This document shows positions 41,433 to 59,349 of a stretch of DNA of 64,000 bases, in pieces. Where the stretch lies: assembly GCA_964580435.1 (NCBI GenBank), contig CAZOKP010000003.1, positions 3,967-67,966 on the forward strand, read 5' to 3'. Each line of letters opens with the position of its first letter. Position 1 is the first letter of the stretch. The stretch comes from an uncultured Eubacteriales bacterium (GTDB lineage Bacteria > Acidobacteriota > Aminicenantia > Aminicenantales > UBA8522). A program made the position numbers and the translations under genes. The notes beneath the pieces were generated by a model that saw only the letters and a program-made list of their open reading frames with translations, did no database searches and was not told the DNA's origin.

Positions 41433-41518
41433 TTCCCTGCTCATTTTTTTCCTGCAAAAGGGTCTTTTCCCCGTTTTGATTGCGGCGGCCCGCCGGGATA
41501 AAAAAGGTCACTTTTCTC

Positions 41519-41547
41519 TTGACATTCCCTGCCCTCTTCTGTATAAA
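41519..41547 (+). promoter_or_regulatory. Sigma70-like promoter (TTGACA-17-TATAAA) upstream of the multiheme cytochrome cluster
   Basis: Near-consensus -35 and -10 boxes, ~80 nt upstream of the proposed TTG start of the decaheme gene. Confidence 0.5.
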
Positions 41548-41626
41548 ATCTATCGAATTTATAGAACATATAAATTCTCTCAATAAAGAGACAAGATGGA
41601 CGAAGAATTCCTCAAGGAGGTTGGAG

Positions 41627-42487: not shown

Positions 42488-42497
42488 GAGAAATAGG

Positions 42498-44363: not shown

Positions 44364-44381
44364 CACCTCGAGGAGGAGATC

Positions 44382-46703: not shown

Positions 46704-46719
46704 GAGAGAAGACCTTCAA

Positions 46720-46749
46720 GGCGGCATCAAAAAATGCCGCCGTTTTTTT
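46720..46749 (+). terminator. Rho-independent terminator after the decaheme cytochrome gene
   Basis: GGCGGCAT-caaaaa-ATGCCGCC followed by GTTTTTTTA. Confidence 0.75.
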
Positions 46750-46840: not shown

Positions 46841-48076
46841 ATGAAGAAAGGATTTTTCCTGATCGCCTTGCTCAGCTTGCTTTTGCCTCCGGCTCTCCGC
46901 GGCCAGGAGTGCCTGGAATGTCATAAAAAGACTACGCCCAACATCGTCGGCGACTGGCTGGAAAGCAAGCACAGCAAAAATGACGTAACCTGTTCTATTT
47001 GCCACGGGGAAGAACACAAGACTGCTGCGGATTTTGCCAAAGCCAGGATCCCCACACCTGAAACGTGCGCTGCCTGTCACGAAGAACAGGTAAGCCAGTT
47101 CAAACGGGGCAAACACGCCTTGGCGTGGGCCGCCATGAAAGCCATGCCTACAGCCCATGCTCAGCCCGTCGCGATGATGGAGGGGATGAAGGGATGCGGC
47201 GGATGCCATAAGATCGGACTGAAAACCGAAGCGGAAATAGAAGAGCTCGATAAAGCCGGCGCTGGATTCGGTCGAGCCTCATGCGATGCCTGCCACACGC
47301 GGCATATTTTCTCCACCGCCGAAGCCCGGCAACCTCAAGCCTGCCAGACCTGTCACATGGGCTTCGATCATCCTCAATGGGAGATGTACTCCGCTTCCAA
47401 GCACGGCGTCCGCTTTCTCCTGAAACAAAACAAGACCCTCCCCGAGTCGGTTGCCGCGCCGACCTGCCAGACCTGCCATATGCAGGAGAAAAACCACGAA
47501 GTCCGGACCGCTTGGGGTTTTCTGGCCGTCCGGCTGCCCATGCCTGAGGACAAGCAATGGGCTGCAGATAGAGCAACCATCCTCCAGGCTCTCGGCGTTC
47601 TGGACCCTGCCGGTAACCCCACAGCAAGGCTCGATGTCGTCAAGGCAGCGGACGTCGCCCGTCTTAGTCAGGAAGCCTGGCAGAAAGAACGGGACAAAAT
47701 GATCGGCATCTGCAACCGTTGCCACAGCGTGAATTTTGCCAAAGCAGAGCTCGAAAAAGGCGACCAGATGATCAAAGAAGTGGACCATCTGATGGCGGAG
47801 GCCATCCTGACGGTCGCGTCTCTCTACAAAGACGGCGTTTTGCCGAAACCGGCGAACTACGCTTATCCGTTTCCCGATCTTCTGACCTTCCATGACGCGC
47901 CGACCGAAGTGGAGCAGAAGCTCTTCGTGATGTTTCTCGAACACCGGATGCGCGCCTTCCAGGGGACCTTCCACGCCAACCCGGACTATGCACTCTGGTA
48001 CGGTTGGAGCGAAATGAGGCGGTCGCTCACAGAGATCCAGACTCTCGCTGCGGCTAAGCGCAAAAACCAAACGTGA
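46841..48076 (+). CDS. Periplasmic octaheme c-type cytochrome
   Basis: Signal peptide and eight CXXCH motifs (CLECH, CSICH, CAACH, CGGCH, CDACH, CQTCH, CQTCH, CNRCH) in 411 aa. Confidence 0.7.
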   Translation: MKKGFFLIALLSLLLPPALRGQECLECHKKTTPNIVGDWLESKHSKNDVTCSICHGEEHKTAADFAKARIPTPETCAACHEEQVSQFKRGKHALAWAAMKAMPTAHAQPVAMMEGMKGCGGCHKIGLKTEAEIEELDKAGAGFGRASCDACHTRHIFSTAEARQPQACQTCHMGFDHPQWEMYSASKHGVRFLLKQNKTLPESVAAPTCQTCHMQEKNHEVRTAWGFLAVRLPMPEDKQWAADRATILQALGVLDPAGNPTARLDVVKAADVARLSQEAWQKERDKMIGICNRCHSVNFAKAELEKGDQMIKEVDHLMAEAILTVASLYKDGVLPKPANYAYPFPDLLTFHDAPTEVEQKLFVMFLEHRMRAFQGTFHANPDYALWYGWSEMRRSLTEIQTLAAAKRKNQT

Positions 48077-48145: not shown

Positions 48146-49501
48146 ATGAAGGCCCTGCTCAATTTTTTCACCTCGGTCCGGGTGGCCATCACCCTGCTGA
48201 TCATCCTCATCTGCGCCTCGATCATAGGAACGCTCATACCTCAAGGGAGAAGCGCGCAGGAATACCTCGTCCGCTACGGCCAGCTCGGCACCCTGCTGGA
48301 GCGGCTCCAGCTCACCAGGCTTTATCATTCCTTCTGGTTTATTGCACTGCTCGCGCTATTTTCCCTGAACATCATCGTCTGCACGCTCGAAAGGCTCTTT
48401 CCCAAATTCCGGCGGACCTTCCGGCCGAAGTTGGAGACCGAACCCAAGAACATTCTCGCTTTGAAAATCAGGGATAAATTCAAAGTCGGCCTGACAGTTG
48501 CCGAAACCAGGGAGATGGTCAAGAAGGAACTCACCCGCCGCCGCTACCGGCTTAGGGAAGCTGAGACCGAAACCAAGCACTGCTTTACCGCCCGGAAGAG
48601 GGACCTGGGCTGGTTCGGGTCCGATATCGTCCACTTGGGCATCCTCGTGATCCTAGCCGGAGGAATCGCCAGCGGACTCGGTGGTTACCGCAAAGACCTC
48701 ACCTTTAGTGAAGGCCAGACTCTTTCCGTTCCCGGGGCGAATTTCTCTGTCCGACTGGACAAGTTCGTCACGGAATACTATCCTAACGGAAGTGTCAAGG
48801 ACTGGAAAAGCCTCCTCACCGTGACTGAGGACGGAAAGCCCCTCTTCCAAAAAGCAGTCGAAGTCAATTATCCCCTAAATCATCAAGGCTACGTTTTTTA
48901 TCAAAGCGGCTACGGTTGGGATTGGGAGCATCCCTCGCTCGAAGTCTGGGTGAAGAAAAAGCAGAACCCGACCTATCTCAAAAAGGTCTGGCTGAAGGTC
49001 GGCGAGAAAACGGCCCTGGAAGGTGAATCCCTTGTGCTCAACGCGCTCCAGTTCATCCCTGATTTCGTCCTCGACGAAAAAAACCAGCCGGCCGCCCGCT
49101 CGTTGGAGCCAAACAATCCGGCGGCTTTCATCGAAGGCTGGGAGGGGCCCGAAAAGGTGTTCTCCGGCTGGATTTTCGCCAAGTTCCCCGATTTTTCACG
49201 CCTCCACTCGGGGGCCAAGGAACCGGATATTTCCCTCGAACTCAAGGACGTCCGGGCGCCCAATTACTCGGTCATCCACGTGGCCAAGGACCCGGGCGTA
49301 TCGCTCATCTGGAGCGGCTGCGTCCTGCTGATGGCGGGGCTCGTCCTGGCCTTTTACTGGCCGACGAGAGAATTGAAGATTATTCTGGAGGACAGCCAGG
49401 GGAAGACAGGCGTCACAGCCGGCGGAATTTCTATTAAGAGCCGGGAGGTCTTTCAAACGGAATTTGAAAGCATCATCAACTCTCTAAGGAAACGCAAATG
49501 A
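48146..49501 (+). CDS. resB: Cytochrome c biogenesis protein ResB/CcsB (System II)
   Basis: N-terminal TM segments (…VRVAITLLIILICASIIGTL…). A large periplasmic domain and a C-terminal TM helix follow. 451 aa. Overlaps ccsA by 4 nt. Confidence 0.8.
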   Translation: MKALLNFFTSVRVAITLLIILICASIIGTLIPQGRSAQEYLVRYGQLGTLLERLQLTRLYHSFWFIALLALFSLNIIVCTLERLFPKFRRTFRPKLETEPKNILALKIRDKFKVGLTVAETREMVKKELTRRRYRLREAETETKHCFTARKRDLGWFGSDIVHLGILVILAGGIASGLGGYRKDLTFSEGQTLSVPGANFSVRLDKFVTEYYPNGSVKDWKSLLTVTEDGKPLFQKAVEVNYPLNHQGYVFYQSGYGWDWEHPSLEVWVKKKQNPTYLKKVWLKVGEKTALEGESLVLNALQFIPDFVLDEKNQPAARSLEPNNPAAFIEGWEGPEKVFSGWIFAKFPDFSRLHSGAKEPDISLELKDVRAPNYSVIHVAKDPGVSLIWSGCVLLMAGLVLAFYWPTRELKIILEDSQGKTGVTAGGISIKSREVFQTEFESIINSLRKRK

Positions 49502-50316
49502 CTGAATCCACTTTTTTCCTGCTTGCTTTCATCCTTTATGCTTTGGCCGCTGCCTTCTACTTTTCCTATCTTTTCTCCAAAAAGGAAAACCGGGCCACGA
49601 TCGGTTTCGCCGTTGCCCTGGCGGGTCTGCTCATCCATACGCTGGCCTTAGTTTTTAGGACGGTCGAAAGCGGCCATGCGCCCTTCACCAACATGTACGA
49701 GTCCCTCTCCTTTCTGGCCTGGGCTTCTATCCTGGCCTTCATCATCATCGAGGCAAAATACAAGGTCAGGAGGCCGGGGGCTTACCTGCTGCTTATTGTG
49801 ATCGCCCTCATGGCCCTGGCGTCTTCGCCGCTCATGCCGAAAGAAGCCACTCCTCTTGTTCCGGCGCTGCAGAGTTACTGGCTCTGGCTGCATGTTTCCG
49901 TTACGCTTATCGGCGAGGCCTTTTTTGCCATCGCCTTCATCACCAGCATCATGTACCTTGCGGCCGACGCCAAAGAACGAAAAGGGAAAGCAGCGAAATC
50001 GGGGCTCACCGCGGAGAGACTTGACTCCATCAGCTACCGCACCATCGCGATCGGTTTTCCGCTCTTCACCTTGGGAGGGCTCGTCTTCGGCATGGTCTGG
50101 GCTTATAAGGCCTGGGGAACCTACTGGAGCTGGGACCCCAAGGAGGTTTGGAGCCTGATCACCTGGTTCGTCTTTGCCCTGTATCTCCACACCCGGATCG
50201 TCATGGGCTGGAAGGGCCGGCGTTCGGCCGCCATCGCCATCATCGGATTTCTCGCTGCCCTCTTCACTTACTTTGGCGTGAATTACCTGCTGGCGGGGCT
50301 GCACAGTTATGCCTGA
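49498..50316 (+). CDS. ccsA: Cytochrome c biogenesis protein CcsA/ResC (System II haem exporter-lyase)
   Basis: Polytopic membrane protein with a Trp-rich WGxxWxWD-type region (WAYKAWGTYWSWDPKEVW), 272 aa. Confidence 0.8.
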   Translation: MTESTFFLLAFILYALAAAFYFSYLFSKKENRATIGFAVALAGLLIHTLALVFRTVESGHAPFTNMYESLSFLAWASILAFIIIEAKYKVRRPGAYLLLIVIALMALASSPLMPKEATPLVPALQSYWLWLHVSVTLIGEAFFAIAFITSIMYLAADAKERKGKAAKSGLTAERLDSISYRTIAIGFPLFTLGGLVFGMVWAYKAWGTYWSWDPKEVWSLITWFVFALYLHTRIVMGWKGRRSAAIAIIGFLAALFTYFGVNYLLAGLHSYA

Positions 50317-50409: not shown

Positions 50410-52422
50410 ATGAAGATGCGGATAACCAAGAAAAGGACCCTTATCTCCCTTGCCGTTCTTGGCTTTCTCCTGCTTCTTTTCATCGCCGCAGCCGAAATCA
50501 CGTCCCAGTCCAGGTTCTGCTCCACCTGCCACTACATGAAACCCTTTTACCAGAGCTGGAAAACCTCCTCCCATGGCAACGTCCAGTGTAGTGTCTGTCA
50601 TTATCCTCCCGGATTGAGGTCCTTCTTCAGGGCGAAGGTGGAAGGATTGATGCAGCTGGGCCGGTATTGGACCAAGCTCTACCTCAAGTCCAGACCCTGG
50701 GCGGAGATTCCGGATGAAAGCTGTCTGCGTCAGGGATGCCACGACACCAGGCTTCTCGAGGGCCGAGTGAAATTCAAGGAGGTCATCTTCGACCACAAGA
50801 TCCACCTCGAGGACTTGAAAAGAGGAAAGAAACTTCGCTGCACGAGCTGCCACTCCCAGATCGTCCAGGGAGAGCATATTACTGTCACCGAGACTACGTG
50901 TTTTATCTGCCATTTTAAAAAGAGCGAACATTACCCCCAGATCGGCCAGTGCTCCCACTGTCACATCCAGCAAGATCTGGTCTCGAAACAAACCTCCCGG
51001 TTCAACCATACGGTCGTTTTCGAAAAAAAATTCAGCTGCGACAAATGTCACAGCCAGGTCGTCGTGGGCGACGGTGCCGTCCCCCGCGAGAACTGTTATA
51101 AATGTCATTTTGAGAAAGAGAGGCTGGATCAATATTCCGACACGGATTTAATCCATTCCACCCATATCACAGCCCATAAGATCGAGTGTAACCAATGCCA
51201 TTTGCAGATTCAGCACAAAATTGTCAAAGACATCGAGACCATCGCCGATTGCCGGACCTGCCACACGGGCTTCCATCAGGCCCAGAAGATTCTGTACACC
51301 GGCGAAGGCGGAAAAGGCATTGCCCATGCTCTGCCCAATGTCATGCTGGAAAAAGGGCTGAGCTGCAAGGGCTGCCACATGTTCCACGAGGAGGCGGGCG
51401 GAAAGTTGGTCAAGAGCGAGACCTCGATCTCGAAGGAGCAGGCCTGCGAATCCTGTCACGGAGCAGGATTCGCTCGAGTTCTCCGGTACTGGCAGGTCTC
51501 GACCGAGAAAAGGCTGAGCCAGATCAGGAGGATCTATCAAAGATCTTCCCAGGAAGTCGGGCTGAGCAAGAGCCCTAATCGGGAAAGGGCCAAGCCATTG
51601 CTTGACGATGCGGCCTTTAACATCGACGTCGTCGAGAGAGGCAAAAGCGTCCATAATATGGCCTACTCACAAGAGCTTCTTCAGGCCGCCATTGCCTATA
51701 TGGAGGAAGCCCTGCAGCTCGTCGGTTCTTCTTATAAGCCAGAAAAATTCCTGCCGGAAACAAAGGACATCCCCTCGCAATGCTCCCAGTGCCACGCCGG
51801 GATCGAAGAGATCAATGGCCGGGTCTTCGGGCTGTCCTTTCCCCACAAAACGCATGTCGTCGGCCAGAAAATGCAGTGTTCGACCTGCCATTCCAATGCG
51901 AAAAAACACGGTGAATTCATCGGCTCCAAAAAACAGTGCGCCACTTGTCATCATCAGGATATCAAGAAAGACTGCGGAAGCTGCCATATCCTCCAAAAGA
52001 CCCTCTATGTGGGAGGGACGTTAGATGGCTGGGAAGTCCCCAAGGATATGATGGCCGAGGCGAACGTCGGCTGTGCCGATTGCCACGCCCTGGACAAAGG
52101 TCAGATCCGCCCGGCCGACAGCTCCACGTGCATGAATTGCCATGAAGAGAGCTACACAAAGACGTTTGCGGAATGGCAGGATGCATATAAAAAGCAGCGG
52201 GATTCTCTCCTCACCAGCCTTGAAGTAAAGAGAAGGCTTAAGCTGCCCGAGGGAGACCGAGCCAAACTTGCCGAGGTCGAGCAGATGCTCAGAAAACTCG
52301 AGGACGACGGAAGCTCCTCCGTTCACAACTCCCAGTTCATCGAAGACCTGTTGACAAAACTTGAACTCCGGATAAAATCTATCCAGGAACAGCCGGCGCA
52401 TGAAGAGACGGACATTCGTTAA
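50410..52422 (+). CDS. Membrane-anchored multiheme cytochrome with NapC/NirT/NrfH-like N-terminus (17 CXXCH + 1 CX4CH)
   Basis: N-terminal TM helix followed by CSTCHYMKPFYQSWKTSSHGNVQCSVCH, as in NrfH/NapC quinol dehydrogenases. Fifteen further CXXCH motifs and one CLRQGCH follow. C-terminal coiled-coil-like tail. 670 aa. Confidence 0.7.
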   Translation: MKMRITKKRTLISLAVLGFLLLLFIAAAEITSQSRFCSTCHYMKPFYQSWKTSSHGNVQCSVCHYPPGLRSFFRAKVEGLMQLGRYWTKLYLKSRPWAEIPDESCLRQGCHDTRLLEGRVKFKEVIFDHKIHLEDLKRGKKLRCTSCHSQIVQGEHITVTETTCFICHFKKSEHYPQIGQCSHCHIQQDLVSKQTSRFNHTVVFEKKFSCDKCHSQVVVGDGAVPRENCYKCHFEKERLDQYSDTDLIHSTHITAHKIECNQCHLQIQHKIVKDIETIADCRTCHTGFHQAQKILYTGEGGKGIAHALPNVMLEKGLSCKGCHMFHEEAGGKLVKSETSISKEQACESCHGAGFARVLRYWQVSTEKRLSQIRRIYQRSSQEVGLSKSPNRERAKPLLDDAAFNIDVVERGKSVHNMAYSQELLQAAIAYMEEALQLVGSSYKPEKFLPETKDIPSQCSQCHAGIEEINGRVFGLSFPHKTHVVGQKMQCSTCHSNAKKHGEFIGSKKQCATCHHQDIKKDCGSCHILQKTLYVGGTLDGWEVPKDMMAEANVGCADCHALDKGQIRPADSSTCMNCHEESYTKTFAEWQDAYKKQRDSLLTSLEVKRRLKLPEGDRAKLAEVEQMLRKLEDDGSSSVHNSQFIEDLLTKLELRIKSIQEQPAHEETDIR

Positions 52423-52825
52423 CTTCTTCTTGGGAGGCTCTCTCGTCGGGACTCTAAGCTCGCTTCTTTATCCCATCATCCGCTATCTCATCCCCCCGCG
52501 TCAGGCTGAGGCGGTGGCAAAGAAAATTGCCGCCGCCAAAGTAGGAGAGTTAGCTCCCAACTCCGCGAAGCTGTTCAAATTCGGGTCCTCTCCCGCCCTC
52601 TTGATTAATACCGCCGAGGGCCAGCTCCGGGCTTTTTCCGCCGTGTGCACTCACCTAACCTGCACGGTCAGCTATGAGAGCGACACCAGCACGCTTTATT
52701 GTCCCTGTCATAACGGCCGGTTCGACCTCGCCGGGAATGTCATATCCGGGCCGCCGCCCCGCCCATTAGAGACTTATGAAATCGAGGTGGTCAGCGGCGA
52801 TATCCTTGTCTCTAAGAAAGCTTAG
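52400..52825 (+). CDS. Rieske [2Fe-2S] iron-sulfur protein (bc-complex type)
   Basis: N-terminal TM/Tat-like segment and Rieske boxes CTHLTC…CPCHNG. The start overlaps the preceding cytochrome gene by 23 nt. Confidence 0.8.
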   Translation: MKRRTFVNFFLGGSLVGTLSSLLYPIIRYLIPPRQAEAVAKKIAAAKVGELAPNSAKLFKFGSSPALLINTAEGQLRAFSAVCTHLTCTVSYESDTSTLYCPCHNGRFDLAGNVISGPPPRPLETYEIEVVSGDILVSKKA

Positions 52826-52826
52826 A

Positions 52827-53900
52827 ATGAGCCAGCTCATTAGGAACGCGGTCGCCTATCTCGAATCCAGATTCCAGTTTTCCGCCCTGGCCGAATTCGG
52901 CAAGAAAAAGAAAGTCCCGGAGCATAAATATTCTTTCTGGTATTACTTTGGCGGGCTGTGTCTTTTTCTTTTCTTTGTGCAGGTCGTTACGGGCATCCTC
53001 CTCCTTTTGTACTACACTCCCTCAGTCGATGCGGCTCATGAAAGCATTCAGTTCATCATGAGCCAGGTCAAATTCGGCTGGCTCATTCGTTCTGTCCACA
53101 GCTGGACGGCCAACATCCTGGTCGGAGCCATTTTCATCCACATGTTCAGCGCGTTCTTTCTCAAGGCCTACCGGCCGCCGCGGGATCTCACCTGGATCAG
53201 TGGATTCTTTCTCCTCATCTTCTTCCTGGCCTTCGGTTTCAGCGGCTATCTTCTTCCCTGGAATGAACTCTCGTTTTTCGCCACCCGGGTGGGAACGGAT
53301 ATCGCCGGCGTTATCCCTTACATTGGCAAAGCCCTCAAAACGTTCATTCTCGGAGGCCCGGAGGTTTCCGGCGCCACCCTGAGCCGGTTCTTCTGGCTTC
53401 ACGTGGCTGTTCTCCCGGCGATTGCGTTCGTCGTCCTGGGGATCCATATCTTCCTGGTCCAGGTCCTGGGGATGAGCAAGCCGATCGGGATCTCCGAGAG
53501 GAAGGAGATCTCTTTCTTCCCGACGTTCATCCTCAAGGACGCCCTGGTCTGGCTCCTCGTCTTGACTGCCATCGGCGTCCTCTGCGTCTTTTTCCCTTGG
53601 GAAGTGGGCCAAAAGGCCGACCCTTTCGCAGCGACGCCGATCGGCATCAAGCCCGAATGGTATTTCACCTTCATGTTCACGACACTCAAGCTCATCCCCC
53701 CTCACATTTTCTCCCTGGAAGGTGAGGTTCTGGCCATCCTGGGATTCATGCTGGGCGGATTGCTCTGGATGCTCGTTCCCTATCTTGACCGGAGGGCCGG
53801 CCGGGAGACGAAGAGTCCTGTTTTTTCAGGGGCAGGTTTTCTTATTCTGCTCTATATCATTGTCATGACGGCTCTGACCTACCTTGCACCCCGCATATAA
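52827..53900 (+). CDS. Cytochrome b of a bc-type complex (b6/subunit IV-like, fused)
   Basis: Polytopic with conserved haem-ligand His context (…SVHSWTANILVGAIFIHM…FGFSGYLLPWN…). The ATG at 52827 is 2 nt after the Rieske stop. The track ORF starts further upstream at 52776. Confidence 0.8.
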   Translation: MSQLIRNAVAYLESRFQFSALAEFGKKKKVPEHKYSFWYYFGGLCLFLFFVQVVTGILLLLYYTPSVDAAHESIQFIMSQVKFGWLIRSVHSWTANILVGAIFIHMFSAFFLKAYRPPRDLTWISGFFLLIFFLAFGFSGYLLPWNELSFFATRVGTDIAGVIPYIGKALKTFILGGPEVSGATLSRFFWLHVAVLPAIAFVVLGIHIFLVQVLGMSKPIGISERKEISFFPTFILKDALVWLLVLTAIGVLCVFFPWEVGQKADPFAATPIGIKPEWYFTFMFTTLKLIPPHIFSLEGEVLAILGFMLGGLLWMLVPYLDRRAGRETKSPVFSGAGFLILLYIIVMTALTYLAPRI

Positions 53901-53919
53901 CTGAGGTCAAAATATTACA

Positions 53920-55206
53920 TTGAAAGTGAAAGAGAACAAAGAACGGGACAAAAACCGGATGAGATCGAAGCTCGTCTCTGTTGTCTCATTTTTGTTCCTC
54001 CTGGCCCTTCCTCTCTCGCTCTTCGGCCAAAAAAATTCCTGCCTGGAATGCCACAAGGAGATGGATGATCAGAACCTGCGCGCTCCTGTGGATGGATTCG
54101 CGACGGATGTTCATCGGCAATTCGGTCTGGGCTGCCAGGACTGCCATGGAGGCAACCCCCTGCAGGATGACGTGGGACTGGCCAAGGACAAGTCCTTCAA
54201 GGGGGCGCCCGGGAAAGCCAAGGTGCCGGAATTCTGCGGCTCCTGCCATTCCAATTCCGAGTACATGAGGCGCTTCAATCCAAATGTACGCGTGGACCAG
54301 CTTCAGACCTACTGGACGAGCAAGCACGGCGAGCTCCTGAGAAAAGGCGACACGAATGTCGCCGTCTGCACGGACTGCCATGGAATTCATGGGATTCAAG
54401 CCTCCAATTTCCCCAAATCCTCGACCTTCGCCTGGAACATCCCCCAGACCTGCGGCCGTTGCCATTCCAGCCAGGATGTGATGAAGGCCTACGGCATTCC
54501 CGTCAACCAAGTCGACGATTATAAACACAGCGTCCATGCGACCGCCCTTTTCGATAAAAAGGACCTCTCGGCGCCGGTCTGCAATGACTGCCATGGAAAT
54601 CACGGCGCTGCACCCCCTCAAGTTACGTCAATCGCTTTTGTCTGCCGGCAGTGCCATCCGAGCGCCGGAGACCTCTTTACTCAAAGCCCTCACAAGGCTG
54701 CTTTCGACGGACTGGGGATTTCGGAATGCGAAGCCTGCCACGGCAATCACAAGATTCTCGCCCCCACCGACGAGATGCTCGCCGGAGGACGCAACGACGT
54801 CTGCAGCCAGTGCCATGACACCGGGACCAAGCCTTATGAGACCGGGCTCGAGATGAAGCGGAAGCTCTCGGGCTATGTGGCCACATTTCAAACCGCCGAA
54901 GACCTTCTCGAAAGAGCCGAAAAACAGGGCGTCGAGGTCAGCGATCCTCGGTTCAAGCTCCAGGAGGCCTCCACGGCCTTGATCCTCGTCCGGAACCTGA
55001 CCCACGGCCTTTCCCTCACGGACATGGAAGCGAAGCTCGCTGAAGGGGACAACGTCATCGCCGAGGTCAAAGCGCTCGGCGGCGCCGCTTTGAAGGAAGC
55101 GAAATTCCGCAAGACAGGCCTTGTCATCACCACCGTCTTCATCTTCCTTCTCGCCCTGGCCCTTTATTTCAAGATCCGCGAGCTCCAGTCGCGACCCAAG
55201 GCCTAG
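53920..55206 (+). CDS. Nonaheme c-type cytochrome with C-terminal transmembrane anchor
   Basis: Nine CXXCH motifs and a C-terminal hydrophobic helix (GLVITTVFIFLLALALYF). The real start may be the internal Met near 53950, which is followed by a signal peptide. It follows the Rieske/cyt b genes directly. Confidence 0.7.
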   Translation: MKVKENKERDKNRMRSKLVSVVSFLFLLALPLSLFGQKNSCLECHKEMDDQNLRAPVDGFATDVHRQFGLGCQDCHGGNPLQDDVGLAKDKSFKGAPGKAKVPEFCGSCHSNSEYMRRFNPNVRVDQLQTYWTSKHGELLRKGDTNVAVCTDCHGIHGIQASNFPKSSTFAWNIPQTCGRCHSSQDVMKAYGIPVNQVDDYKHSVHATALFDKKDLSAPVCNDCHGNHGAAPPQVTSIAFVCRQCHPSAGDLFTQSPHKAAFDGLGISECEACHGNHKILAPTDEMLAGGRNDVCSQCHDTGTKPYETGLEMKRKLSGYVATFQTAEDLLERAEKQGVEVSDPRFKLQEASTALILVRNLTHGLSLTDMEAKLAEGDNVIAEVKALGGAALKEAKFRKTGLVITTVFIFLLALALYFKIRELQSRPKA

Positions 55207-55447: not shown

Positions 55448-55476
55448 TTGACAATTTTCCGGGACTTCTCTAAAAT
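55448..55476 (+). promoter_or_regulatory. Sigma70 consensus-like promoter (TTGACA-17-TAAAAT)
   Basis: Seen in the 313-nt gap before the tetraheme cytochrome gene. It probably heads the 55520-59349 operon. Confidence 0.5.
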
Positions 55477-55519: not shown

Positions 55520-56041
55520 ATGAAAAAGATCATTGTGCTTATCGTCATCATAGTTGCGATTTTGCTCATCAATCTTTTGGGCCAGAACTTCACCTATGTG
55601 GGATCGGCCAAGTGTGCGATCTGCCACAAGACGGAAACACAGGGCCAGCAGTATCCGATCTGGCAGAAGTCCAAGCATTCCATGTCCTTCGCCGCGCTCA
55701 GCTCTCCTGAGGCTGCTCCAAAAGCCCAGGCCGCCGGAGTGCAGAACCCGGCGGAAAGCCCCCAGTGTCTCAAATGCCATGCACCCCTCTTCGAGAAGGC
55801 CGCCGAACTCAAGGCCGAGGGCGTCACCTGCGAGGTCTGCCACGGCCCGGGAAGCGAATACAAAAAACTCACCATCATGAAAGACAAAGCCCTGGCCCAG
55901 AAGAACGGCCTGGTCCTCTATGAATCTTCGGATGCCGCTAAAAAACACTGCCTGACCTGCCATGAGAATGCTCACGGCACGAGCTTCGATTACGCGGCAG
56001 CCTGGGAAAAGATCAAACACGACAAACCGGCCGCAAAATAG
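55520..56041 (+). CDS. Small tetraheme c-type cytochrome (periplasmic, 174 aa)
   Basis: ATG with GGAGG 4 nt upstream, signal/anchor MKKIIVLIVIIVAILLINLLG, four CXXCH motifs. The track ORF 55121..56041 is over-extended at the 5-prime end. Confidence 0.7.
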   Translation: MKKIIVLIVIIVAILLINLLGQNFTYVGSAKCAICHKTETQGQQYPIWQKSKHSMSFAALSSPEAAPKAQAAGVQNPAESPQCLKCHAPLFEKAAELKAEGVTCEVCHGPGSEYKKLTIMKDKALAQKNGLVLYESSDAAKKHCLTCHENAHGTSFDYAAAWEKIKHDKPAAK

Positions 56042-56050
56042 ACCGCATTT

Positions 56051-57331
56051 TTGGCGATCATTTCCTGGATGCGAAAACCTGAGGTTGGCGTTTTATTCCT
56101 TCTGATTCTCGGGGCCTTCCTGTGGGCCGGTCCAGAAAAGACCCCTTCTTCGAACGCCCAGTGCTTGGCCTGTCACGGTTCCCAAGCCGCGGTCAGCGAA
56201 AAACTCAGGATCAATGAAAAGAACTTCCTCGGGTCGGCGCACGCATCCCTCGCCTGCACCGATTGCCACATGATCCAGCCGGGAGAGAGGGAAGGCGAGA
56301 TCCCGCATAGAAAGACTCTTCCGGATGTCAATTGCACAGCCGCCTGTCATCGTGAAAGCGGCCGGATCGGCACCGGACTGACTCCTCTTTCCTACCCCGA
56401 CAGCGTCCACGGCCGAGCCTATCTCGAAAGAGGAGTCAGGGAAGTGGCCAAGTGCTGGGACTGTCACGGAAAGCACAATATCAGGCCCGTTTCTGATCCC
56501 GAGTCCTCAGTCAGCAGGAAGAACATCCCCCTGACATGCTCGGCCTGTCATGAGGATATGCACGTCGTCATCAAGTACAACATCCACAGCGAAATGCCCT
56601 ATCACGAATACATGAAGAGCGTCCACGGCAAGGCCCTTTTTGAGAAAGGGCTTGTCCAATTCGCCGCCGTCTGCACCGACTGCCACGGCGTCCATGACAT
56701 CAAAGGCGTCGGCGAGCCCCATCTGATGGCCAAGCAGCCCCAGACCTGCGGCCGCTGCCACGAGCTCATCTTTGACGAGTACAAGCAGAGCCTCCACGGC
56801 CAGCAGGCCCTCGGCGGGAATGTTGATGCTCCGTTCTGTGTCGACTGCCACGGAGAACACGGCATCGCCTCGCCTAAGGAAGAAGGCTCCCCTACTTCTG
56901 TCAACAAGGTCCTCGATACCTGCTCGGCCTGCCACGCCCGGCCGGAGATCATGCAGAAATACGGCGTTCCCGAAGACCGGATTGCCACGTTTATCGACAG
57001 CCTGCACGGGATCGCCGTCGGGTTTGGCTACAAAGCCGCGGCCAATTGCACGAGCTGCCACGGCGTTCACGATATCAGGCCGGCCTCTGATCCCCTGTCC
57101 AAAATCAGCCCGGCCAACCTGCGGAAGACCTGCGGACAGCCCAGCTGCCATCCGAATATGCCAGAAAAAATTGCCACGGCCAAGATTCATATCGGCGCTG
57201 CTCAAAAAAACCCCGCCGCTCTCTTTTATGTTCAAAGGGTGCTCCTCATCCTGGTCATCGCCGTTCTCGTCATCACCGTGCTCTGGTTCATTCCCGGTTT
57301 CATCAAAAAAATGAGGCTCTTGAAAAAGTAG
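56051..57331 (+). CDS. Multiheme c-type cytochrome (9 CXXCH + CX3CH + CX4CH) with C-terminal TM anchor
   Basis: Signal peptide and repeated HG…C..CHG.H.I….DP.S…N…TC..CH units. It is a paralog of the next gene and of 53920. C-terminal helix VLLILVIAVLVITVLWFIPGFI. Confidence 0.7.
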   Translation: MAIISWMRKPEVGVLFLLILGAFLWAGPEKTPSSNAQCLACHGSQAAVSEKLRINEKNFLGSAHASLACTDCHMIQPGEREGEIPHRKTLPDVNCTAACHRESGRIGTGLTPLSYPDSVHGRAYLERGVREVAKCWDCHGKHNIRPVSDPESSVSRKNIPLTCSACHEDMHVVIKYNIHSEMPYHEYMKSVHGKALFEKGLVQFAAVCTDCHGVHDIKGVGEPHLMAKQPQTCGRCHELIFDEYKQSLHGQQALGGNVDAPFCVDCHGEHGIASPKEEGSPTSVNKVLDTCSACHARPEIMQKYGVPEDRIATFIDSLHGIAVGFGYKAAANCTSCHGVHDIRPASDPLSKISPANLRKTCGQPSCHPNMPEKIATAKIHIGAAQKNPAALFYVQRVLLILVIAVLVITVLWFIPGFIKKMRLLKK

Positions 57332-57335: not shown

Positions 57336-58580
57336 ATGGGTCAAGGCAAAGCTGTCTTTCTCGGGGTCGTCTTTCTTTTCTTCGGCGTGGCCTCGCCCTT
57401 TCTCCTCTCCCAGTCGAACGAGGACTGCCTCACCTGCCACGGAGACGCCGAGCTTAAGTCCGAAGCAGGGAAATCCCTTTTCTTGGATAGCGAGAAATTC
57501 CTGGCCTCAAGCCACGGCAAGGCGGAAATCTCCTGCGTCGATTGCCACGCCGACCTCGCCAAAATTAAGGATTTTCCGCACTCTTCTCCGTTGAAACCCG
57601 TTGATTGCAGCCGGTGTCATGAAGCGGCCGCCCGAGAATTCCAGAAAAGCGCCCATTATGCGGCCACGGGGACCGGGGAAAACGCTCTGGCTGTCAGCTG
57701 CAAGGACTGTCATGGAACGCATGACATCAAGGGCAAGTCAGATTATGACTCAGCCATCTTCCCCATCAACCTTCCCTCCACCTGCGAGAAATGTCATCTC
57801 GAGAGGGTGGCGGCCAAGAAAGGACCTGGTTTCGTCGGTCAATACAGGGAGAGCGTTCACTTCAAAGCCCTCGAAAAATCCGGGCTGACGATGTCGGCCA
57901 ACTGCAGCAACTGCCACGGAGCCCATGACATCAAAAAAGTTTCCGACCCGCTCGCCCCGGTCGCCCGCAAGAACATCATCAAGACCTGCGGAATGTGCCA
58001 CGTCGGTATAGAACGAGACTATCTCGAGGGAGTGCACGGCAAGGACTATGTCAAAGGCATCAAGGATGTTCCCGTCTGCACCGACTGCCACAGCGAGCAC
58101 GATATCCTCTCGCCGCAGGACCTGAACTCCACGGTATATGCAACCAAGGTTGCGGAGGTCTGTTCCCGCTGCCATGACAACATGGCTTTGAGCCGGGAGT
58201 ACGGCTTCCTGACTTCGCGCCTGAAAACTTACAACCAAACCTTCCACGGGACCGCCTCGAGATACGGGGAAACGCGCGTGGCCAATTGCGCCTCCTGCCA
58301 CGGTTTCCACGGCATCCGGCCATCTTCGGACCCGAAATCCTCCATTAACCCGGAAAACCTGCCCAAAACCTGCGGGAAATGCCATCCCGGCGCCAGCCGC
58401 CACTTCGCTGAGGGCCAGGTTCACGTCATCCCCGAAGAAATTGTCACGGCCAAATATAGGTCTGCCCATCTTGTCAAGAACATCTATATTATCGTGATTT
58501 CGATTATTATCACGGTCTTCCTCATTTTTATCGCCGCGGACCTGTTCAGACGGATTATTAGAAAGGAAAAACATGGCTAG
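57336..58580 (+). CDS. Undecaheme c-type cytochrome with C-terminal TM anchor
   Basis: Eleven canonical CXXCH motifs and the same repeat unit. C-terminal helix IYIIVISIIITVFLIFIAADLF. It overlaps the next gene by 8 nt. Confidence 0.7.
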   Translation: MGQGKAVFLGVVFLFFGVASPFLLSQSNEDCLTCHGDAELKSEAGKSLFLDSEKFLASSHGKAEISCVDCHADLAKIKDFPHSSPLKPVDCSRCHEAAAREFQKSAHYAATGTGENALAVSCKDCHGTHDIKGKSDYDSAIFPINLPSTCEKCHLERVAAKKGPGFVGQYRESVHFKALEKSGLTMSANCSNCHGAHDIKKVSDPLAPVARKNIIKTCGMCHVGIERDYLEGVHGKDYVKGIKDVPVCTDCHSEHDILSPQDLNSTVYATKVAEVCSRCHDNMALSREYGFLTSRLKTYNQTFHGTASRYGETRVANCASCHGFHGIRPSSDPKSSINPENLPKTCGKCHPGASRHFAEGQVHVIPEEIVTAKYRSAHLVKNIYIIVISIIITVFLIFIAADLFRRIIRKEKHG

Positions 58581-59349
58581 TTCTCCCCTTGTCCGCGACG
58601 ACGAGATCTTCCTGCGGATGAATCTCGCCGAACGGATCCAGCACTATCTCCTCATCGCCACGTTCTTTCTGCTCATGGTCACGGGGATTCCCCTTTTCTT
58701 CTACGAATTCAAGGCCTTCAAGTGGTTCTTCCCGACAGAGCAGGTTTTCTATATCCGGGGGATCATCCACAGGATTGCCGCGGTCGTTTTGATCATAAAT
58801 CTCATTTGGCACCTCTTTTACGCGACTCTGACGGCCCGGGGCCGGAATAACCTCAAGGTCATGATCCCCAAATTCCGCGACGGCAAAGACGCCTTTGAAC
58901 TTTTCTGGTACAACGTCGGGTTAACCCGCTTCCTCTACAGGCTGGGGTTCTTTCAGAAATTCTTCGAAACCCACCCCTACTGGCTTTTCCAGAACCCGCC
59001 CCTTTTCGGGCGCTATAATTTTATCGAGAAGTTCGAATACTGGGCCGTGGGCTGGGGCTCGGTCGTGATGATCATCAGCGGCTTCTTCATGTGGAATGTG
59101 GAGCTTTCGCTCCGCTTCTTCCCCCTCTGGGTCCATGACATCCTGGTCATGGTCCACGGCTACGAAGCCCTGCTGGCCTTTCTGGCGGTCATCATTTGGC
59201 ACATGTACAATGTCCATCTCAACCCCGAGGTCTTCCCCATGAGCAAAATCTGGCTGAACGGCAAAATCACGGGGAAAGAGCTCCGGCTGCTCCATCCTCT
59301 CGAATACCAGAAGATTGTCGAGGAACGGAAGAAAAGCCTCCGCCCGTAA
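58573..59349 (+). CDS. Dihaem b-type cytochrome, membrane subunit (FdnI/HydC/cytochrome b561-like, PF01292-type)
   Basis: Four to five TM helices with His pairs in characteristic positions (RIQHYLL…, IIHRIAAV…, HDILVMVHGYEA…, WHMYNVH). It is the last gene of the cytochrome operon. Confidence 0.6.
   Translation: MASSPLVRDDEIFLRMNLAERIQHYLLIATFFLLMVTGIPLFFYEFKAFKWFFPTEQVFYIRGIIHRIAAVVLIINLIWHLFYATLTARGRNNLKVMIPKFRDGKDAFELFWYNVGLTRFLYRLGFFQKFFETHPYWLFQNPPLFGRYNFIEKFEYWAVGWGSVVMIISGFFMWNVELSLRFFPLWVHDILVMVHGYEALLAFLAVIIWHMYNVHLNPEVFPMSKIWLNGKITGKELRLLHPLEYQKIVEERKKSLRP

What the first reader, a model, noticed from the sequence alone, without database searches (positions are those of the whole stretch)
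52400..55206. Rieske / cytochrome b / nonaheme gene trio: a bc-type complex with a multiheme c subunit instead of c1
Rieske (CTHLTC…CPCHNG) and a fused b6/SUIV-like cytochrome b are immediately followed by a 9-haem cytochrome with a C-terminal membrane anchor. They are preceded by the 17-haem NapC-like gene, with gene overlaps indicating co-translation. This resembles alternative bc complexes of deltaproteobacteria/anammox, in which multiheme cytochromes replace cytochrome c1.
Basis: partly seen in the sequence, partly recalled or inferred. Interest (0 to 1): 0.6.

Follow-up and report, generated by a model that had tools for sequence, protein, structure and literature searches.

The report
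Rieske/cytochrome b complex with nine-haem subunit
An uncultured Aminicenantes bacterium has a conserved three-gene respiratory module, related to complex III, in which a membrane-anchored nine-haem cytochrome takes the place of cytochrome c1. It probably passes electrons from membrane quinol into a large cytochrome network that leads out of the cell; the general design is known, but this version has not been described.

Summary
Window 52400-55206 encodes three genes on the + strand:
- a Tat-type Rieske protein (141 aa);
- an unsplit 7-helix cytochrome b (true start 52827, 357 aa), with four haem-ligand histidines, b6-type 14-residue spacing in helix D and a PEWY Qo motif;
- a 9-CxxCH cytochrome with a signal peptide and a C-terminal membrane anchor.

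The trio is adjacent and co-oriented in all 72 related loci that span it. Spacers are mostly 1 nt and mostly under 30 nt. In two other lineages the cytochrome b is fused to a homologue of the 9-haem protein. The same Rieske–cyt b–multihaem order recurs in a Bacteroidota MAG and in one other MAG of unknown taxon.

It is not canonical bc1 or b6f. The kind is already known from genomes (Geobacter Cbc6/ExtMNOPQS, anammox R/b complexes, Methanoperedens), so this is a new variant, not a new category.

My best reading is a menaquinol:multihaem-cytochrome oxidoreductase. It would feed a periplasmic cytochrome network that includes an adjacent MtrA/porin/decahaem outer-membrane conduit, an HAO-like octahaem, a NapC/NrfH-like 17-haem protein and a CbcL-like module. 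Complex formation is well supported by inference. The physiological acceptor (extracellular metals or humics versus N-oxides) is not settled. Interest is moderate.

The parts
52400..52825 (+). Rieske [2Fe-2S] subunit, 141 aa. It has a Tat (KRRTF) signal-anchor. Cluster boxes are CTHLTC and CPCHNGRF. The disulfide cysteines are present, and the Ser/Tyr hydrogen-bond donors are replaced by Gly106/Phe108.
   Evidence: Pfam PF00355 58 bits and TM_PetC 35 bits. NCBIfam PetC-type 86-88 bits, below cut-offs. Best PDB match is the Chlorobaculum tepidum Rieske 8hn2, 70.9 bits. Motifs conserved in 73 sequences.
52827..53900 (+). Cytochrome b, 357 aa, unsplit, with 7 TM helices. Haem ligands are H91/H105 (13 residues between) and H192/H207 (14 between). 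The Qo motif PEWY is at 276-279. Tyr40 occupies the position of the b6f haem-cn cysteine.
   Evidence: Pfam Cytochrome_B 163 bits plus Cytochrom_B_C 35 bits. PDB b6 169 bits and bacterial cyt b about 163-166 bits. Hydropathy. Conservation. Start codon 1 nt after the Rieske stop.
53959..55206 (+). Nine-haem c-type cytochrome, 415 aa (alternative TTG start at 53920). It has a Sec signal peptide, 9 invariant CxxCH motifs, a C-terminal helical hairpin and a single TM anchor at residues 388-406. It is the proposed c1/f replacement.
   Evidence: Motif count. TM helix. 41- and 73-sequence alignments. AF2 model is confident only for residues ~271-410. More than 5000 homologues. Fused to cyt b in P0124/P0289 and P0137/P0295.
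50410..52422 (+). Membrane-anchored 17-haem cytochrome (plus one CX4CH), 670 aa, with a NapC/NrfH-like N-terminus. The first motif is CSTCHYM. It overlaps the Rieske start by 23 nt and is a frequent but not obligatory partner.
   Evidence: Pfam Cytochrom_NNT 36 bits and NCBIfam NrfH 42.6 bits, below cut-off. Detected upstream of Rieske in about three-quarters of the loci that span the region. N-terminus is 40-42% identical to the NapC/NirT-type gene upstream of Rieske in L081/L083.
52351..52378 (+). Sigma-70-like promoter match (TTGACA-16-TAAAAT, 11/12), 22 nt upstream of the Rieske ATG and inside the 17-haem gene. It could be an internal promoter for the trio.
   Evidence: The total number of promoter-like sites is not above the shuffle expectation (12 vs 9.1±3.0), so this is only suggestive.
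55520..56041 (+). Tetrahaem cytochrome c554-like protein (173 aa, N-terminal anchor or signal). It lies 313 nt after the 9-haem gene, has a strong RBS, and a promoter-like site sits at 55448-55476.
   Evidence: Pfam Cytochrome_C554 49.7 bits. Start and RBS. Promoter-like site. Found directly downstream of the 9-haem gene in about three-quarters of loci. The L083 orthologue is 36% identical.
56051..57331 (+). Paralogue of the 9-haem subunit: 9 CxxCH plus 2 variant motifs, with a C-terminal TM anchor.
   Evidence: 32% identical to the 9-haem protein, E 3e-28.
57336..59349 (+). CbcL-like split module. An 11-haem cytochrome with a C-terminal TM anchor (57336-58580) overlaps by 8 nt an FdnI/HydC-type dihaem cytochrome b (58573-59349).
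   Evidence: Pfam Ni_hydr_CYTB 44.6 bits. NCBIfam FdnI 53 bits, below cut-off. Both halves align (37% and 35%) to a single 709-aa fused protein in L083.
48146..50316 (+). System II cytochrome c biogenesis genes ResB/CcsB (48146-49501) and CcsA (49498-50316), embedded in the cluster.
   Evidence: Pfam ResB 273 bits and Cytochrom_C_asm 185 bits. Conserved upstream in most loci.
46841..48076 (+). HAO-family octahaem cytochrome (411 aa, 8 CxxCH, signal peptide). It is a candidate periplasmic terminal reductase.
   Evidence: Pfam PF13447 99.5 bits. Best PDB match is 6h5l, 'similar to hydroxylamine oxidoreductase', 121 bits.
40974..46741 (+). Putative outer-membrane electron conduit with its regulator:
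- Rrf2-family regulator (40974-41432);
- DmsE/MtrA-like decahaem (41480-42487);
- 621-aa beta-barrel (42498-44363);
- 10-haem protein with MtrC-type domains (44382-46703);
- terminator-like hairpin (46720-46741).
   Evidence: NCBIfam TIGR03508 184.5 bits (cut-off 192.2) and rrf2_super 112 bits. Pfam OMP_b-brl and Mtrc-MtrF_II-IV_dom. Terminator. The barrel and 10-haem genes lie upstream of the trio in about 20 loci, four of them with the pair inverted.

Best explanation
The three genes encode one membrane complex of the Rieske/cytochrome b type, a menaquinol:multihaem-cytochrome c oxidoreductase.

Proposed mechanism:
- Quinol is oxidised at a PEWY-type Qo site.
- One electron goes to a low-potential, Tat-exported Rieske cluster. 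From there it enters the haem chain of the 9-haem subunit, which is held next to cytochrome b by its C-terminal helix, as c1 and cytochrome f are.
- The other electron crosses the membrane through the two b haems, so the complex conserves energy by a Q cycle.

From the 9-haem subunit, electrons enter a periplasmic multihaem network encoded around it (c554-like tetrahaem, 17-haem NapC-like protein). The most likely exit is the neighbouring MtrA-like/porin/decahaem conduit, to extracellular acceptors such as Mn(IV), Fe(III) or humics. The HAO-like octahaem is an alternative sink.

Shown here: gene content, motifs, conservation, synteny and fusions.
Inferred: physical assembly (probability about 0.85), quinol oxidation with a Q cycle (about 0.65), and the extracellular acceptor (about 0.45).
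For: Cofactor sites:
- Four invariant b-haem histidines, PEWY, both Rieske boxes with the disulfide cysteines, and 9 invariant CxxCH motifs.
- Rieske positions H+2 and H+4 are Gly/Phe, not Ser/Tyr. By the rule cited in PMC12954380 and PMC4122944 this means a low-potential cluster suited to menaquinol.

Topology: Tat motif on the Rieske protein; signal peptide plus C-terminal anchor on the 9-haem protein.

Linkage:
- The trio is contiguous in 72/72 loci. Rieske→cyt b spacing is mostly 1 nt and cyt b→9-haem mostly 1-29 nt.
- No real terminator lies inside the trio.

Fusions: cyt b is fused to a 9-haem homologue (37-42% identity, E 1e-81 to 1e-85) in P0124/P0289 (Thermoanaerobaculia) and P0137/P0295. 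Each was seen in two sources and has a TM count that places the haem domain in the periplasm.

Other lineages: a Bacteroidota MAG (L081) and a MAG of unknown taxon (L083) have a NapC-like gene, Rieske, a 357-359-aa cyt b and an 11-haem homologue, with 4-nt overlaps. Identities are 55-57%, 46-49% and 37-38%.

Context: DmsE/MtrA-like decahaem, beta-barrel and MtrC-domain decahaem directly upstream; a CbcL-like module downstream; ResB/CcsA inside the cluster.

Precedent: Geobacter Cbc6/ExtMNOPQS lies next to an outer-membrane porin cluster (PMC2825233, PMC5877670). A menaquinol-dependent Rieske/cyt bc complex drives periplasmic reductases in Campylobacter (PMC6195509, abstract).
Against: - There is no biochemical or expression evidence.
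- The Qi site could not be assessed, so a Q cycle is assumed by homology.
- Bis-His multihaem cytochromes are usually low-potential (my knowledge). That sits awkwardly with a Rieske-driven high-potential branch.
- In Geobacter, a mutant lacking ImcH, CbcL and CbcBA cannot reduce Fe(III) even though the Rieske-type Cbc6 is present (10.1101/2021.04.15.440034). The nearest precedent is therefore not sufficient for metal reduction.
- The outer-membrane conduit appears to be a separate transcription unit (terminator at 46720-46741). It is absent near the trio in many loci.
- The AF2 model of the haem domain is unreliable (pLDDT 64.5). No haem can be placed near the Rieske cluster.
Confidence: 0.6

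Rival explanations
1. Same complex, different purpose. It feeds the periplasmic HAO-like octahaem encoded about 4 kb upstream, which reduces nitrite, NO or hydroxylamine. This would match what has been proposed for the Caldithrix nap/εHao-linked Rieske/cyt b and for the anammox Kuste4569-4574 complex.
For: - The HAO-family octahaem at 46841-48076 best matches a Kuenenia HAO-like protein.
- It appears to begin the transcription unit that follows the terminator at 46720.
- It is detected upstream of the trio in about 25 of the 80 loci, roughly half of those with enough upstream sequence.
- N-oxide couples are high-potential (for example nitrite/NO, E0' +380 mV, PMC12954380). That suits a Rieske-driven branch.
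- Precedents: PMC5317091, PMC12954380.
- The Rrf2 regulator has weak NsrR-like similarity.
Against: - The octahaem gene is absent from many loci that keep the trio, and from L081/L083.
- Its catalytic type (reductive or oxidative) was not determined.
- The surrounding genes (MtrA-like, barrel, MtrC-domain, CbcL-like) are typical of extracellular electron transfer (my knowledge).
Confidence: 0.2
2. The 9-haem protein is not a structural subunit. It is an independent membrane-tethered carrier, and Rieske/cyt b hands electrons to another partner (the c554-like tetrahaem or the 17-haem protein).
For: - A 58-nt spacer precedes the 9-haem gene in this window.
- Paralogues of the 9-haem protein pair with a different cytochrome b, of the FdnI type, in the same cluster. 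The family is therefore a portable module.
Against: - The gene is adjacent in 72/72 loci with very short spacers.
- There are 4-nt overlaps in L081/L083.
- Two independent natural fusions to cyt b exist.
- It has a C-terminal anchor like c1 and cytochrome f.
Confidence: 0.1
3. The module runs in reverse. Electrons taken up from outside (Fe(II), a syntrophic partner or a cathode) through the conduit are pushed uphill through the complex to reduce the quinone pool at the expense of proton motive force. Reverse operation of this kind is described for the pet-I bc1 of acidophilic iron oxidisers (my knowledge).
For: - Aminicenantes genomes have been flagged for possible iron oxidation through cyc2 homologues (PMC7005843, PMC7914226).
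- Mtr/Pio-type conduits can work in either direction (my knowledge).
Against: - An MtrC-domain extracellular decahaem is typical of outward transfer (my knowledge).
- No carbon-fixation or NAD-reducing partner lies in the cluster.
- Neighbouring genes indicate organotrophy: 2-oxoacid:ferredoxin oxidoreductase, ADP-forming acyl-CoA synthetase and a glycosidase.
- A low-potential Rieske gives little room for uphill flow from Fe(II).
Confidence: 0.07
4. It is an ordinary bc1 or b6f complex, and the multihaem gene is an unrelated neighbour.
For: Pfam and the PDB both recognise the Rieske and cytochrome b as bc/b6f-type.
Against: - 7 helices, not 8.
- 14-residue, not 13-residue, helix-D spacing.
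- Unsplit, so not b6f. Tyr at the haem-cn cysteine position.
- No c1 or cytochrome f gene.
- All curated equivalog scores are below cut-off.
Confidence: 0.02

Closest known systems
Geobacter Cbc6 / ExtMNOPQS cluster (GSU2930-2935), next to ExtHIJKL (PMC2825233, PMC5877670)
   Same: - A small Rieske protein (about 14 kDa) and a cytochrome b are clustered with 10- and 12-haem cytochromes instead of c1.
- The cluster sits beside an outer-membrane porin cluster.
- ExtP is the best-scoring curated family for this cyt b (205 bits).
- Its function is also still unproven.
   Different: - Geobacter has a split cyt b (ExtP 23 kDa plus ExtQ) and a different gene order, with the multihaem genes upstream of Rieske.
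- The ExtP score is below the equivalog cut-off of 290.
- The 9-haem protein does not match ExtN, and it matches ExtO only weakly (18 bits); no ExtM model appeared among the hits.
- The Geobacter cluster is linked to selenite/tellurite reduction and is not sufficient for Fe(III) reduction (10.1101/2021.04.15.440034).
Anammox Rieske/cyt b complexes Kustd1480-1485 and Kuste4569-4574 (PMC12954380)
   Same: - Cytochrome f/c1 is replaced by a membrane-anchored hexa- or octahaem c.
- An HAO-like octahaem is present in the cluster.
- The cytochrome b has b6-type traits.
   Different: - The anammox complexes have split b6/SUIV with haem cn and a NAD(P) oxidoreductase subunit, and at least one has a high-potential Ser/Tyr Rieske.
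- Here cyt b is unsplit, Tyr replaces the cn cysteine, no NAD(P) subunit is present, and the Rieske is the Gly/Phe low-potential type.
Green sulfur bacterial (Chlorobaculum) Rieske/cyt b complex with cytochrome c-556 (PMC10172866; clade description in PMC3509893 and PMC4122944)
   Same: - Unsplit 7-helix cytochrome b, PEWY, menaquinol-type low-potential Rieske.
- The Chlorobaculum Rieske is the best PDB match.
- A MAG labelled Chlorobiales lies in the neighbouring part of the tree.
   Different: - The Chlorobaculum partner is a monohaem c-556 that feeds a photosynthetic reaction centre.
- Here the partner is a 9-haem protein in a non-phototroph.
Geobacter inner-membrane quinol oxidases ImcH, CbcL and CbcBA (10.1101/2021.04.15.440034)
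   Same: - Several alternative quinol-to-periplasm entry points serve extracellular respiration.
- The window carries a CbcL-like architecture (multihaem c plus FdnI-type b) and a NapC/NirT-type multihaem protein beside the trio.
   Different: - None of the three Geobacter proteins contains a Rieske subunit.
- Orthology of the window's genes to GSU0274 and GSU3259 was not tested. The resemblance is in architecture only.
Other non-canonical Rieske/cyt b clusters: Methanoperedens (two pentahaems, PMC4683180), Caldithrix nap-linked (PMC5317091), Ignavibacterium cyt b–trihaem c7 fusion (PMC4122944)
   Same: Multihaem c-type partners or fusions replace c1. All are assigned by genomics only.
   Different: - Different cytochrome b clades (for example GPWY in Ignavibacterium).
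- Different haem proteins and different proposed acceptors (nitrate).

Membership tests
Rieske/cytochrome b complexes (broad superfamily) | Rieske [2Fe-2S] boxes CxH…CxxH, with the two extra disulfide cysteines typical of bc-type Rieske proteins | tested here: met
   C83-T-H85-L-T-C88 and C101-P-C103-H104. The four cluster ligands (C83, H85, C101, H104) and disulfide C88 are conserved at ≥97% and disulfide C103 at ≥80% of 73 sequences.
Rieske/cytochrome b complexes (broad superfamily) | Cytochrome b with four histidine ligands for haems bL/bH on helices B and D, and a P-E/D-W-Y Qo motif | tested here: met
   H91, H105, H192, H207 and PEWY 276-279 are invariant.
Rieske/cytochrome b complexes (broad superfamily) | Quinol:acceptor oxidoreductase activity with a Q cycle | not testable with these tools
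   Needs membranes or purified enzyme.
Canonical cytochrome bc1 | Eight-helix cytochrome b with 13 residues between the helix-D histidines | tested here: not met
   Seven hydrophobic helices. 14 residues between H192 and H207.
Canonical cytochrome bc1 | Monohaem cytochrome c1 gene following cytochrome b | tested here: not met
   The following gene has 9 CxxCH motifs and matches only multihaem cytochrome families in Pfam and NCBIfam.
Cytochrome b6f | Cytochrome b split into b6 (4 TM) and subunit IV (3 TM) | tested here: not met
   A single 357-aa ORF covers both parts.
Cytochrome b6f | Cysteine that binds haem cn (b6 Cys35), and a cytochrome f subunit | tested here: not met
   The aligned position is Tyr40. 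The nearby Cys45 is specific to Aminicenantes. No cytochrome f gene is present.
Cytochrome b6f | 14-residue spacing of the helix-D histidines | tested here: met
Chlorobi-type / 'green-clade' groups A1-A2 of Baymann et al. (PMC3509893) | Unsplit seven-helix cytochrome b with green-clade traits and PEWY | tested here: met
   Nearest 50%-identity cluster representatives come from Thermoanaerobaculia, Eisenbacteria, Myxococcaceae, a Chlorobiales-labelled MAG and Vampirovibrionales. The tree is NJ only, with no support values and no canonical outgroups.
Chlorobi-type / 'green-clade' groups A1-A2 of Baymann et al. (PMC3509893) | Low-potential Rieske cluster (about +150 mV) | tested here: inconclusive
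   Only a sequence proxy is available: Gly106/Phe108 at the Ser/Tyr positions (rule from PMC12954380 and PMC4122944). No potential was measured.
Geobacter ExtMNOPQS / Cbc6 | Cytochrome b reaches the ExtP equivalog cut-off (NF040969, 290 bits) | tested here: not met
   205.4 bits, covering only the N-terminal 4-helix part.
Geobacter ExtMNOPQS / Cbc6 | Multihaem partners orthologous to ExtN/ExtM | tested here: not met
   The 9-haem protein gives no ExtN hit. Only the paralogue at 56051-57331 gives about 31 bits, against a cut-off of 200.
Anammox R/b-2 and R/b-3 complexes | NAD(P) oxidoreductase subunit encoded within the Rieske/cyt b cluster | tested here: not met
   None lies between 46841 and 59349. 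The two flavoproteins at 59496-62130 are of the geranylgeranyl-reductase family.
CbcL-type quinol oxidase (applies to the neighbouring genes 57336-59349, not to the trio) | Multihaem c domain joined to an FdnI/HydC-type dihaem cytochrome b | tested here: met
   Architecture only. The 11-haem gene overlaps the Ni_hydr_CYTB gene by 8 nt, and both align to one 709-aa fused protein in L083. Orthology to GSU0274 was not tested.

The most novel reading that the evidence does not exclude
The trio is the energy-conserving member of a conserved, portable 'three-door' quinol-oxidase cassette. The three doors are a NapC/ImcH-like multihaem protein, the Rieske/cyt b/multihaem complex, and a CbcL-like b/c module. 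The cassette is shared by Aminicenantes and at least one Bacteroidota MAG, and parts of it by Thermoanaerobaculia and other lineages. It would let these supposedly fermentative sediment bacteria respire extracellular acceptors across a range of redox potentials. The Rieske complex would run a Q cycle directly into a multihaem wire, which has never been shown biochemically for any organism.
Probability: 0.25. Interest if true: 0.65.

Novelty: new variant of a known kind. Interest (0 to 1): 0.45.

Why it matters
Rieske/cytochrome b complexes that use multihaem cytochromes instead of c1 or f have been predicted from genomes since about 2010. None has been purified outside anammox work, and their energetics are an open question: how does a bifurcating Qo site feed a chain of usually low-potential haems?

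This family is a good test case for three reasons:
- It is compact (three genes).
- It is very widespread: more than 5000 homologues of the haem subunit, and 260 genome loci for the cytochrome b.
- It exists as natural cyt b–multihaem fusions, which would ease expression and structure determination.

It also matters ecologically. Aminicenantes are abundant in anoxic sediments, aquifers and peat, and the papers I found treat them mainly as fermenters or acetogens. A conserved respiratory cassette of about 90 haems would mean they take part in metal, humic or nitrogen cycling.

Tried and rejected
1. Structure of the 9-haem protein. AF2 on a 41-sequence alignment gave pLDDT 64.5. Only the C-terminal helices were confident. 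The Foldseek search of the PDB found nothing with E ≤ 0.001. The best match was Kuenenia HAO, with TM-score 0.23. I discarded this as uninformative.

2. Haem cn. The canonical cysteine position is Tyr. A conserved Cys45 looked interesting, but it is confined to Aminicenantes (A, T or S elsewhere), so it is not a family feature.

3. The fusion P0121 (790 aa). It was seen once and has only one extra TM helix, which would put the haem domain in the cytoplasm. It may be a missed stop codon, so I do not count it. The two other fusions pass the topology check.

4. Promoter and terminator scan. Totals are not above the shuffle expectation. Only the positions of the two 11/12 matches and of the hairpin at 46720 are suggestive.

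5. The 313-nt gap after the 9-haem gene. It has no Rfam family and no unusual folding (z = 0.25).

6. Literature. I found no paper describing this complex in Aminicenantes. Dibrova et al. 2013, often cited for multihaem bc complexes, was not available.

7. P0298 (631 aa). I suspected a SUIV–multihaem fusion, but it is a tandem multihaem protein.

8. A full phylogeny with canonical bc1, b6f and anammox references. I could not build it because those sequences were not retrievable. I used structural markers and an NJ tree of the 78 nearest cluster representatives instead.

Full report
**What is there**

The + strand between 46.8 and 59.4 kb is an unbroken run of respiratory genes. The finding's three genes are real.

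Rieske protein, 52400-52825, 141 aa:
- A KRRTF twin-arginine motif and a PetC-like membrane anchor.
- Cluster boxes C83-T-H-L-T-C88 and C101-P-C-H104-N-G-R-F.

Cytochrome b:
- The ORF opens at 52776. The ATG at 52827 lies 1 nt after the Rieske stop and gives a 357-aa protein that aligns from its first residues with b6 and bacterial cytochromes b.
- One polypeptide covers both the b6-like and the subunit-IV-like parts (Pfam 163 + 35 bits).

Multihaem gene:
- The likely start is ATG 53959 and the end is 55206, giving 415 aa.
- It has a signal peptide, exactly nine CxxCH motifs and one C-terminal transmembrane helix.

Upstream gene, 50410-52422: 17 CxxCH plus one CX4CH, with a NapC/NrfH-like N-terminus. 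Its stop overlaps the Rieske start by 23 nt.

Only the 17-haem/Rieske pair overlaps. Rieske and cyt b are 1 nt apart, and cyt b and the 9-haem gene are 58 nt apart (19 nt with the TTG start).

**Organism and conservation**

A scan of one genome per species found 260 relatives of the cytochrome b. The best 80 are almost all MAGs named Candidatus Aminicenantes, or mislabelled bins with the same genes. Identity reaches 89%.

tblastn of all the window's cluster proteins against these loci shows Rieske–cyt b–9-haem contiguous and co-oriented in every locus that spans the region. That is 72 loci; the rest are cut by contig ends.
- Rieske→cyt b spacing is 1 nt in most loci.
- Cyt b→9-haem spacing is mostly 1-29 nt.
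- The 17-haem gene precedes Rieske in 53 of the 72 loci that span the trio, usually with a 4- or 23-nt overlap.

Conservation across 73 sequences:
- At ≥97%: the four b-haem histidines (H91/H105, H192/H207), PEWY (276-279), five of the six Rieske-box cysteines and histidines (Cys103 at ≥80%), and all nine CxxCH motifs.
- At ≥80%: the C-terminal anchor of the 9-haem protein.

Eight further histidines of the 9-haem protein are invariant and Met175 is nearly so in a 41-sequence alignment.

The rest of the window is ordinary chromosome: IleRS, NadB/NadC, a transketolase-family enzyme and SRP RNA. GC content is even.

**Is it a canonical bc1 or b6f?**

No.
- The cytochrome b has seven hydrophobic helices, not eight.
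- The helix-D histidines are 14 residues apart, as in b6, not 13.
- The gene is unsplit, unlike b6f.
- The position of the b6 cysteine that binds haem cn is Tyr40.
- No c1 or cytochrome f gene follows.
- Curated NCBIfam models all score below their cut-offs. The best are Geobacter ExtP (205 of 290 bits) and cytochrome b6 (202 of 325).
- PDB scores for b6 (169 bits) and bacterial cytochromes b (163-166) are about equal.
- The Rieske protein is closest to the Chlorobaculum tepidum protein, then to b6f PetC.

An exhaustive search of 1.8 billion cluster representatives gave 150 hits that all score above any solved structure. All 78 of those long enough to enter the tree have the 14-residue spacing.

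In an NJ tree (no support values, no canonical outgroups) the Aminicenantes sequences group with L075-L083 and P0121. Just outside them sit representatives from Thermoanaerobaculia, Eisenbacteria, Myxococcaceae and a Chlorobiales-labelled MAG. This matches the seven-helix 'green-clade' groups A1/A2 of Baymann et al. (PMC3509893) and the Chlorobi/NC10/Acidobacteria PEWY clade of Kao and Hunte (PMC4122944).

**Is the 9-haem protein a subunit?**

Four lines of inference say yes.
1. It is an obligate neighbour of cytochrome b (above).
2. It has the topology of c1 and cytochrome f: a periplasmic haem domain held by a single C-terminal helix.
3. It occurs as a natural fusion. Among the closest cytochrome b representatives, P0124/P0289 (Thermoanaerobaculia, 794/903 aa) and P0137/P0295 (1012/1018 aa) carry a full-length homologue of the 9-haem protein at their C-terminus.
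   - Identity is 37-42%, with E 1e-81 to 1e-85.
   - Each fusion is seen in two independent sources.
   - Each has an even number of extra helices, so the haem domain ends up in the periplasm.
   - A third fusion, P0121, was seen once and fails the topology check, so I do not count it.
4. The module is conserved beyond Aminicenantes. A profile of the fused haem domains finds more than 5000 proteins. In both intact contexts I opened, the gene follows a 149-153-aa Rieske gene and a 357-359-aa cytochrome b gene with 4-nt overlaps, and a NapC/NirT-type multihaem gene lies upstream. These contexts are L081, a Bacteroidota MAG, and L083, of unknown taxon. A third context (L082) is disrupted by insertion sequences.

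No terminator-like hairpin of any strength lies between cyt b and the 9-haem gene. Transcription itself was not tested.

**Surroundings**

Upstream, in order:
- an Rrf2-family regulator;
- a DmsE/MtrA-like decahaem (184.5 bits, cut-off 192);
- a 621-aa outer-membrane beta-barrel;
- a 10-haem protein with MtrC-type domains;
- the only convincing terminator in the region, at 46720-46741.

Together the decahaem, barrel and 10-haem genes look like a porin-cytochrome conduit.

The next unit starts with an HAO-family octahaem, whose best PDB match is a Kuenenia HAO-like protein. It continues through ResB/CcsA to the 17-haem gene and the trio.

Downstream, after a 313-nt gap:
- a c554-like tetrahaem;
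- a paralogue of the 9-haem protein;
- an 11-haem paralogue whose stop overlaps an FdnI-type cytochrome b.

The last two are fused into one 709-aa protein in L083. That is the architecture of Geobacter CbcL, described in 10.1101/2021.04.15.440034.

The 17-haem protein's first motif, CSTCHYM, is the CxxCHxM form that I recall as typical of the quinol-facing haem of NrfH. That point rests on my knowledge and was not tested.

The cluster therefore holds three different kinds of quinol-facing membrane cytochrome and about 90 haem sites.

**How it most likely works**

Menaquinol would be oxidised at the PEWY Qo site. One electron goes to the Rieske cluster. Gly106 and Phe108 stand where high-potential Rieske proteins have Ser and Tyr, so the cluster is predicted to be low-potential (rule in PMC12954380 and PMC4122944). 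The other electron goes through bL and bH to a Qi site, which conserves energy.

The Rieske head then reduces a haem of the 9-haem subunit. From there electrons spread into the periplasmic multihaem network and out through the conduit, or to the HAO-like octahaem.

My probabilities are about 0.85 for assembly, 0.65 for a Q-cycle quinol oxidase, and 0.45 for an extracellular acceptor against 0.2 for N-oxides.

Points against this reading:
- Bis-His multihaem proteins are usually low-potential (my knowledge).
- The Geobacter analogue (Cbc6) cannot sustain Fe(III) reduction on its own (10.1101/2021.04.15.440034).
- The conduit is a separate transcription unit and is not always nearby.
- Nothing here is biochemical.

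**Comparison with what is known, and novelty**

The kind is established in the genomic literature:
- Geobacter GSU2930-2937 (PMC2825233, PMC5877670);
- anammox R/b complexes with hexa- and octahaem subunits (PMC12954380);
- Methanoperedens (PMC4683180);
- Caldithrix (PMC5317091);
- the Ignavibacterium cyt b–trihaem fusion (PMC4122944).

This family differs from each in at least one defining feature (see the membership table). It has an unsplit 7-helix PEWY cytochrome b, no haem-cn cysteine, no NAD(P) subunit, and a distinct 9-11-haem subunit family that matches no ExtN model. I found no description of it for Aminicenantes or for the Bacteroidota relatives.

I therefore file it as a new variant of a known kind. 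It is of moderate interest as a compact, widespread and naturally fused test case for how a Rieske/cyt b complex drives a multihaem wire. It is also evidence for respiration in a lineage that the literature I found treats mainly as fermentative.

Noticed in passing
window 40974-46741: A putative porin-cytochrome outer-membrane conduit with its own regulator and terminator. In order: an Rrf2-family regulator, a DmsE/MtrA-like decahaem (184.5 bits, cut-off 192.2), a 621-aa beta-barrel, a 10-haem protein with MtrC-type domains, and a strong terminator-like hairpin at 46720-46741.
   Followed up: partly
window 46841-48076: An HAO-family octahaem cytochrome of only 411 aa. Its best solved relative is a Kuenenia HAO-like protein (6h5l). 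I did not determine whether it has the cross-linking tyrosine, that is, whether it is the oxidative or the reductive type.
   Followed up: partly
window 50410-52422: A 17-haem protein (plus one CX4CH) whose first motif is CSTCHYM, the NrfH-style CxxCHxM form. Its N-terminus is 40-42% identical to shorter proteins (about 500 aa, 6 CxxCH plus one CX3CH, N-terminal hydrophobic segments) that sit upstream of Rieske in L081 and L083. Those resemble ImcH in architecture. With this many haems it could in principle span the periplasm.
   Followed up: partly
window 57336-59349; L083 19-2148: An 11-haem cytochrome with a C-terminal anchor overlaps an FdnI-type cytochrome b by 8 nt. The two are fused into one 709-aa protein in L083, which is a CbcL-like architecture. 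The 9-haem subunit, the protein at 56051-57331 and this 11-haem protein are paralogues (28-32% identity).
   Followed up: partly
window 59496-62130: Two tandem flavoproteins of the geranylgeranyl-reductase family, one with weak MenJ-like similarity. They are conserved downstream of the cluster in more than ten loci. They could modify the quinone or lipid side chain.
   Followed up: no
L013 and L016 (CP070825.1, Aminicenantes chromosome, ~0.10 Mb and ~2.10 Mb): One complete Aminicenantes genome carries two copies of the Rieske/cyt b/9-haem trio, in different surroundings.
   Followed up: no
window 52827-53900, residue 45: Cys45 of cytochrome b lies five residues after the position of the b6f haem-cn cysteine. 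It is conserved in Aminicenantes but is A, T or S in related clades. Its role is unknown.
   Followed up: partly
window 53959-55206, residue 349: An invariant histidine (H349) sits in the loop of the C-terminal helical hairpin of the 9-haem protein, far from the haem motifs in sequence. Only eight invariant non-motif histidines exist for nine haems, and Met175 is nearly invariant. One haem may therefore be His/Met-ligated.
   Followed up: no
window 36122-40656 (- strand): An ADP-forming acyl-CoA synthetase and a two-subunit 2-oxoacid (indolepyruvate-type):ferredoxin oxidoreductase lie directly upstream of the cytochrome cluster. This fits amino-acid or organic-acid oxidation as the electron source.
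   Followed up: no
window 9032-9298 (- strand): Bacterial large SRP RNA (Rfam RF01854, 157 bits). It is the only Rfam family found in the window.
   Followed up: yes
P0121 (790 aa, one contig of 5.4 kb): An apparent cyt b–9-haem fusion. It has only one extra TM helix and an intact-looking internal signal peptide, which suggests a missed stop codon or a sequencing error, not a true fusion.
   Followed up: partly
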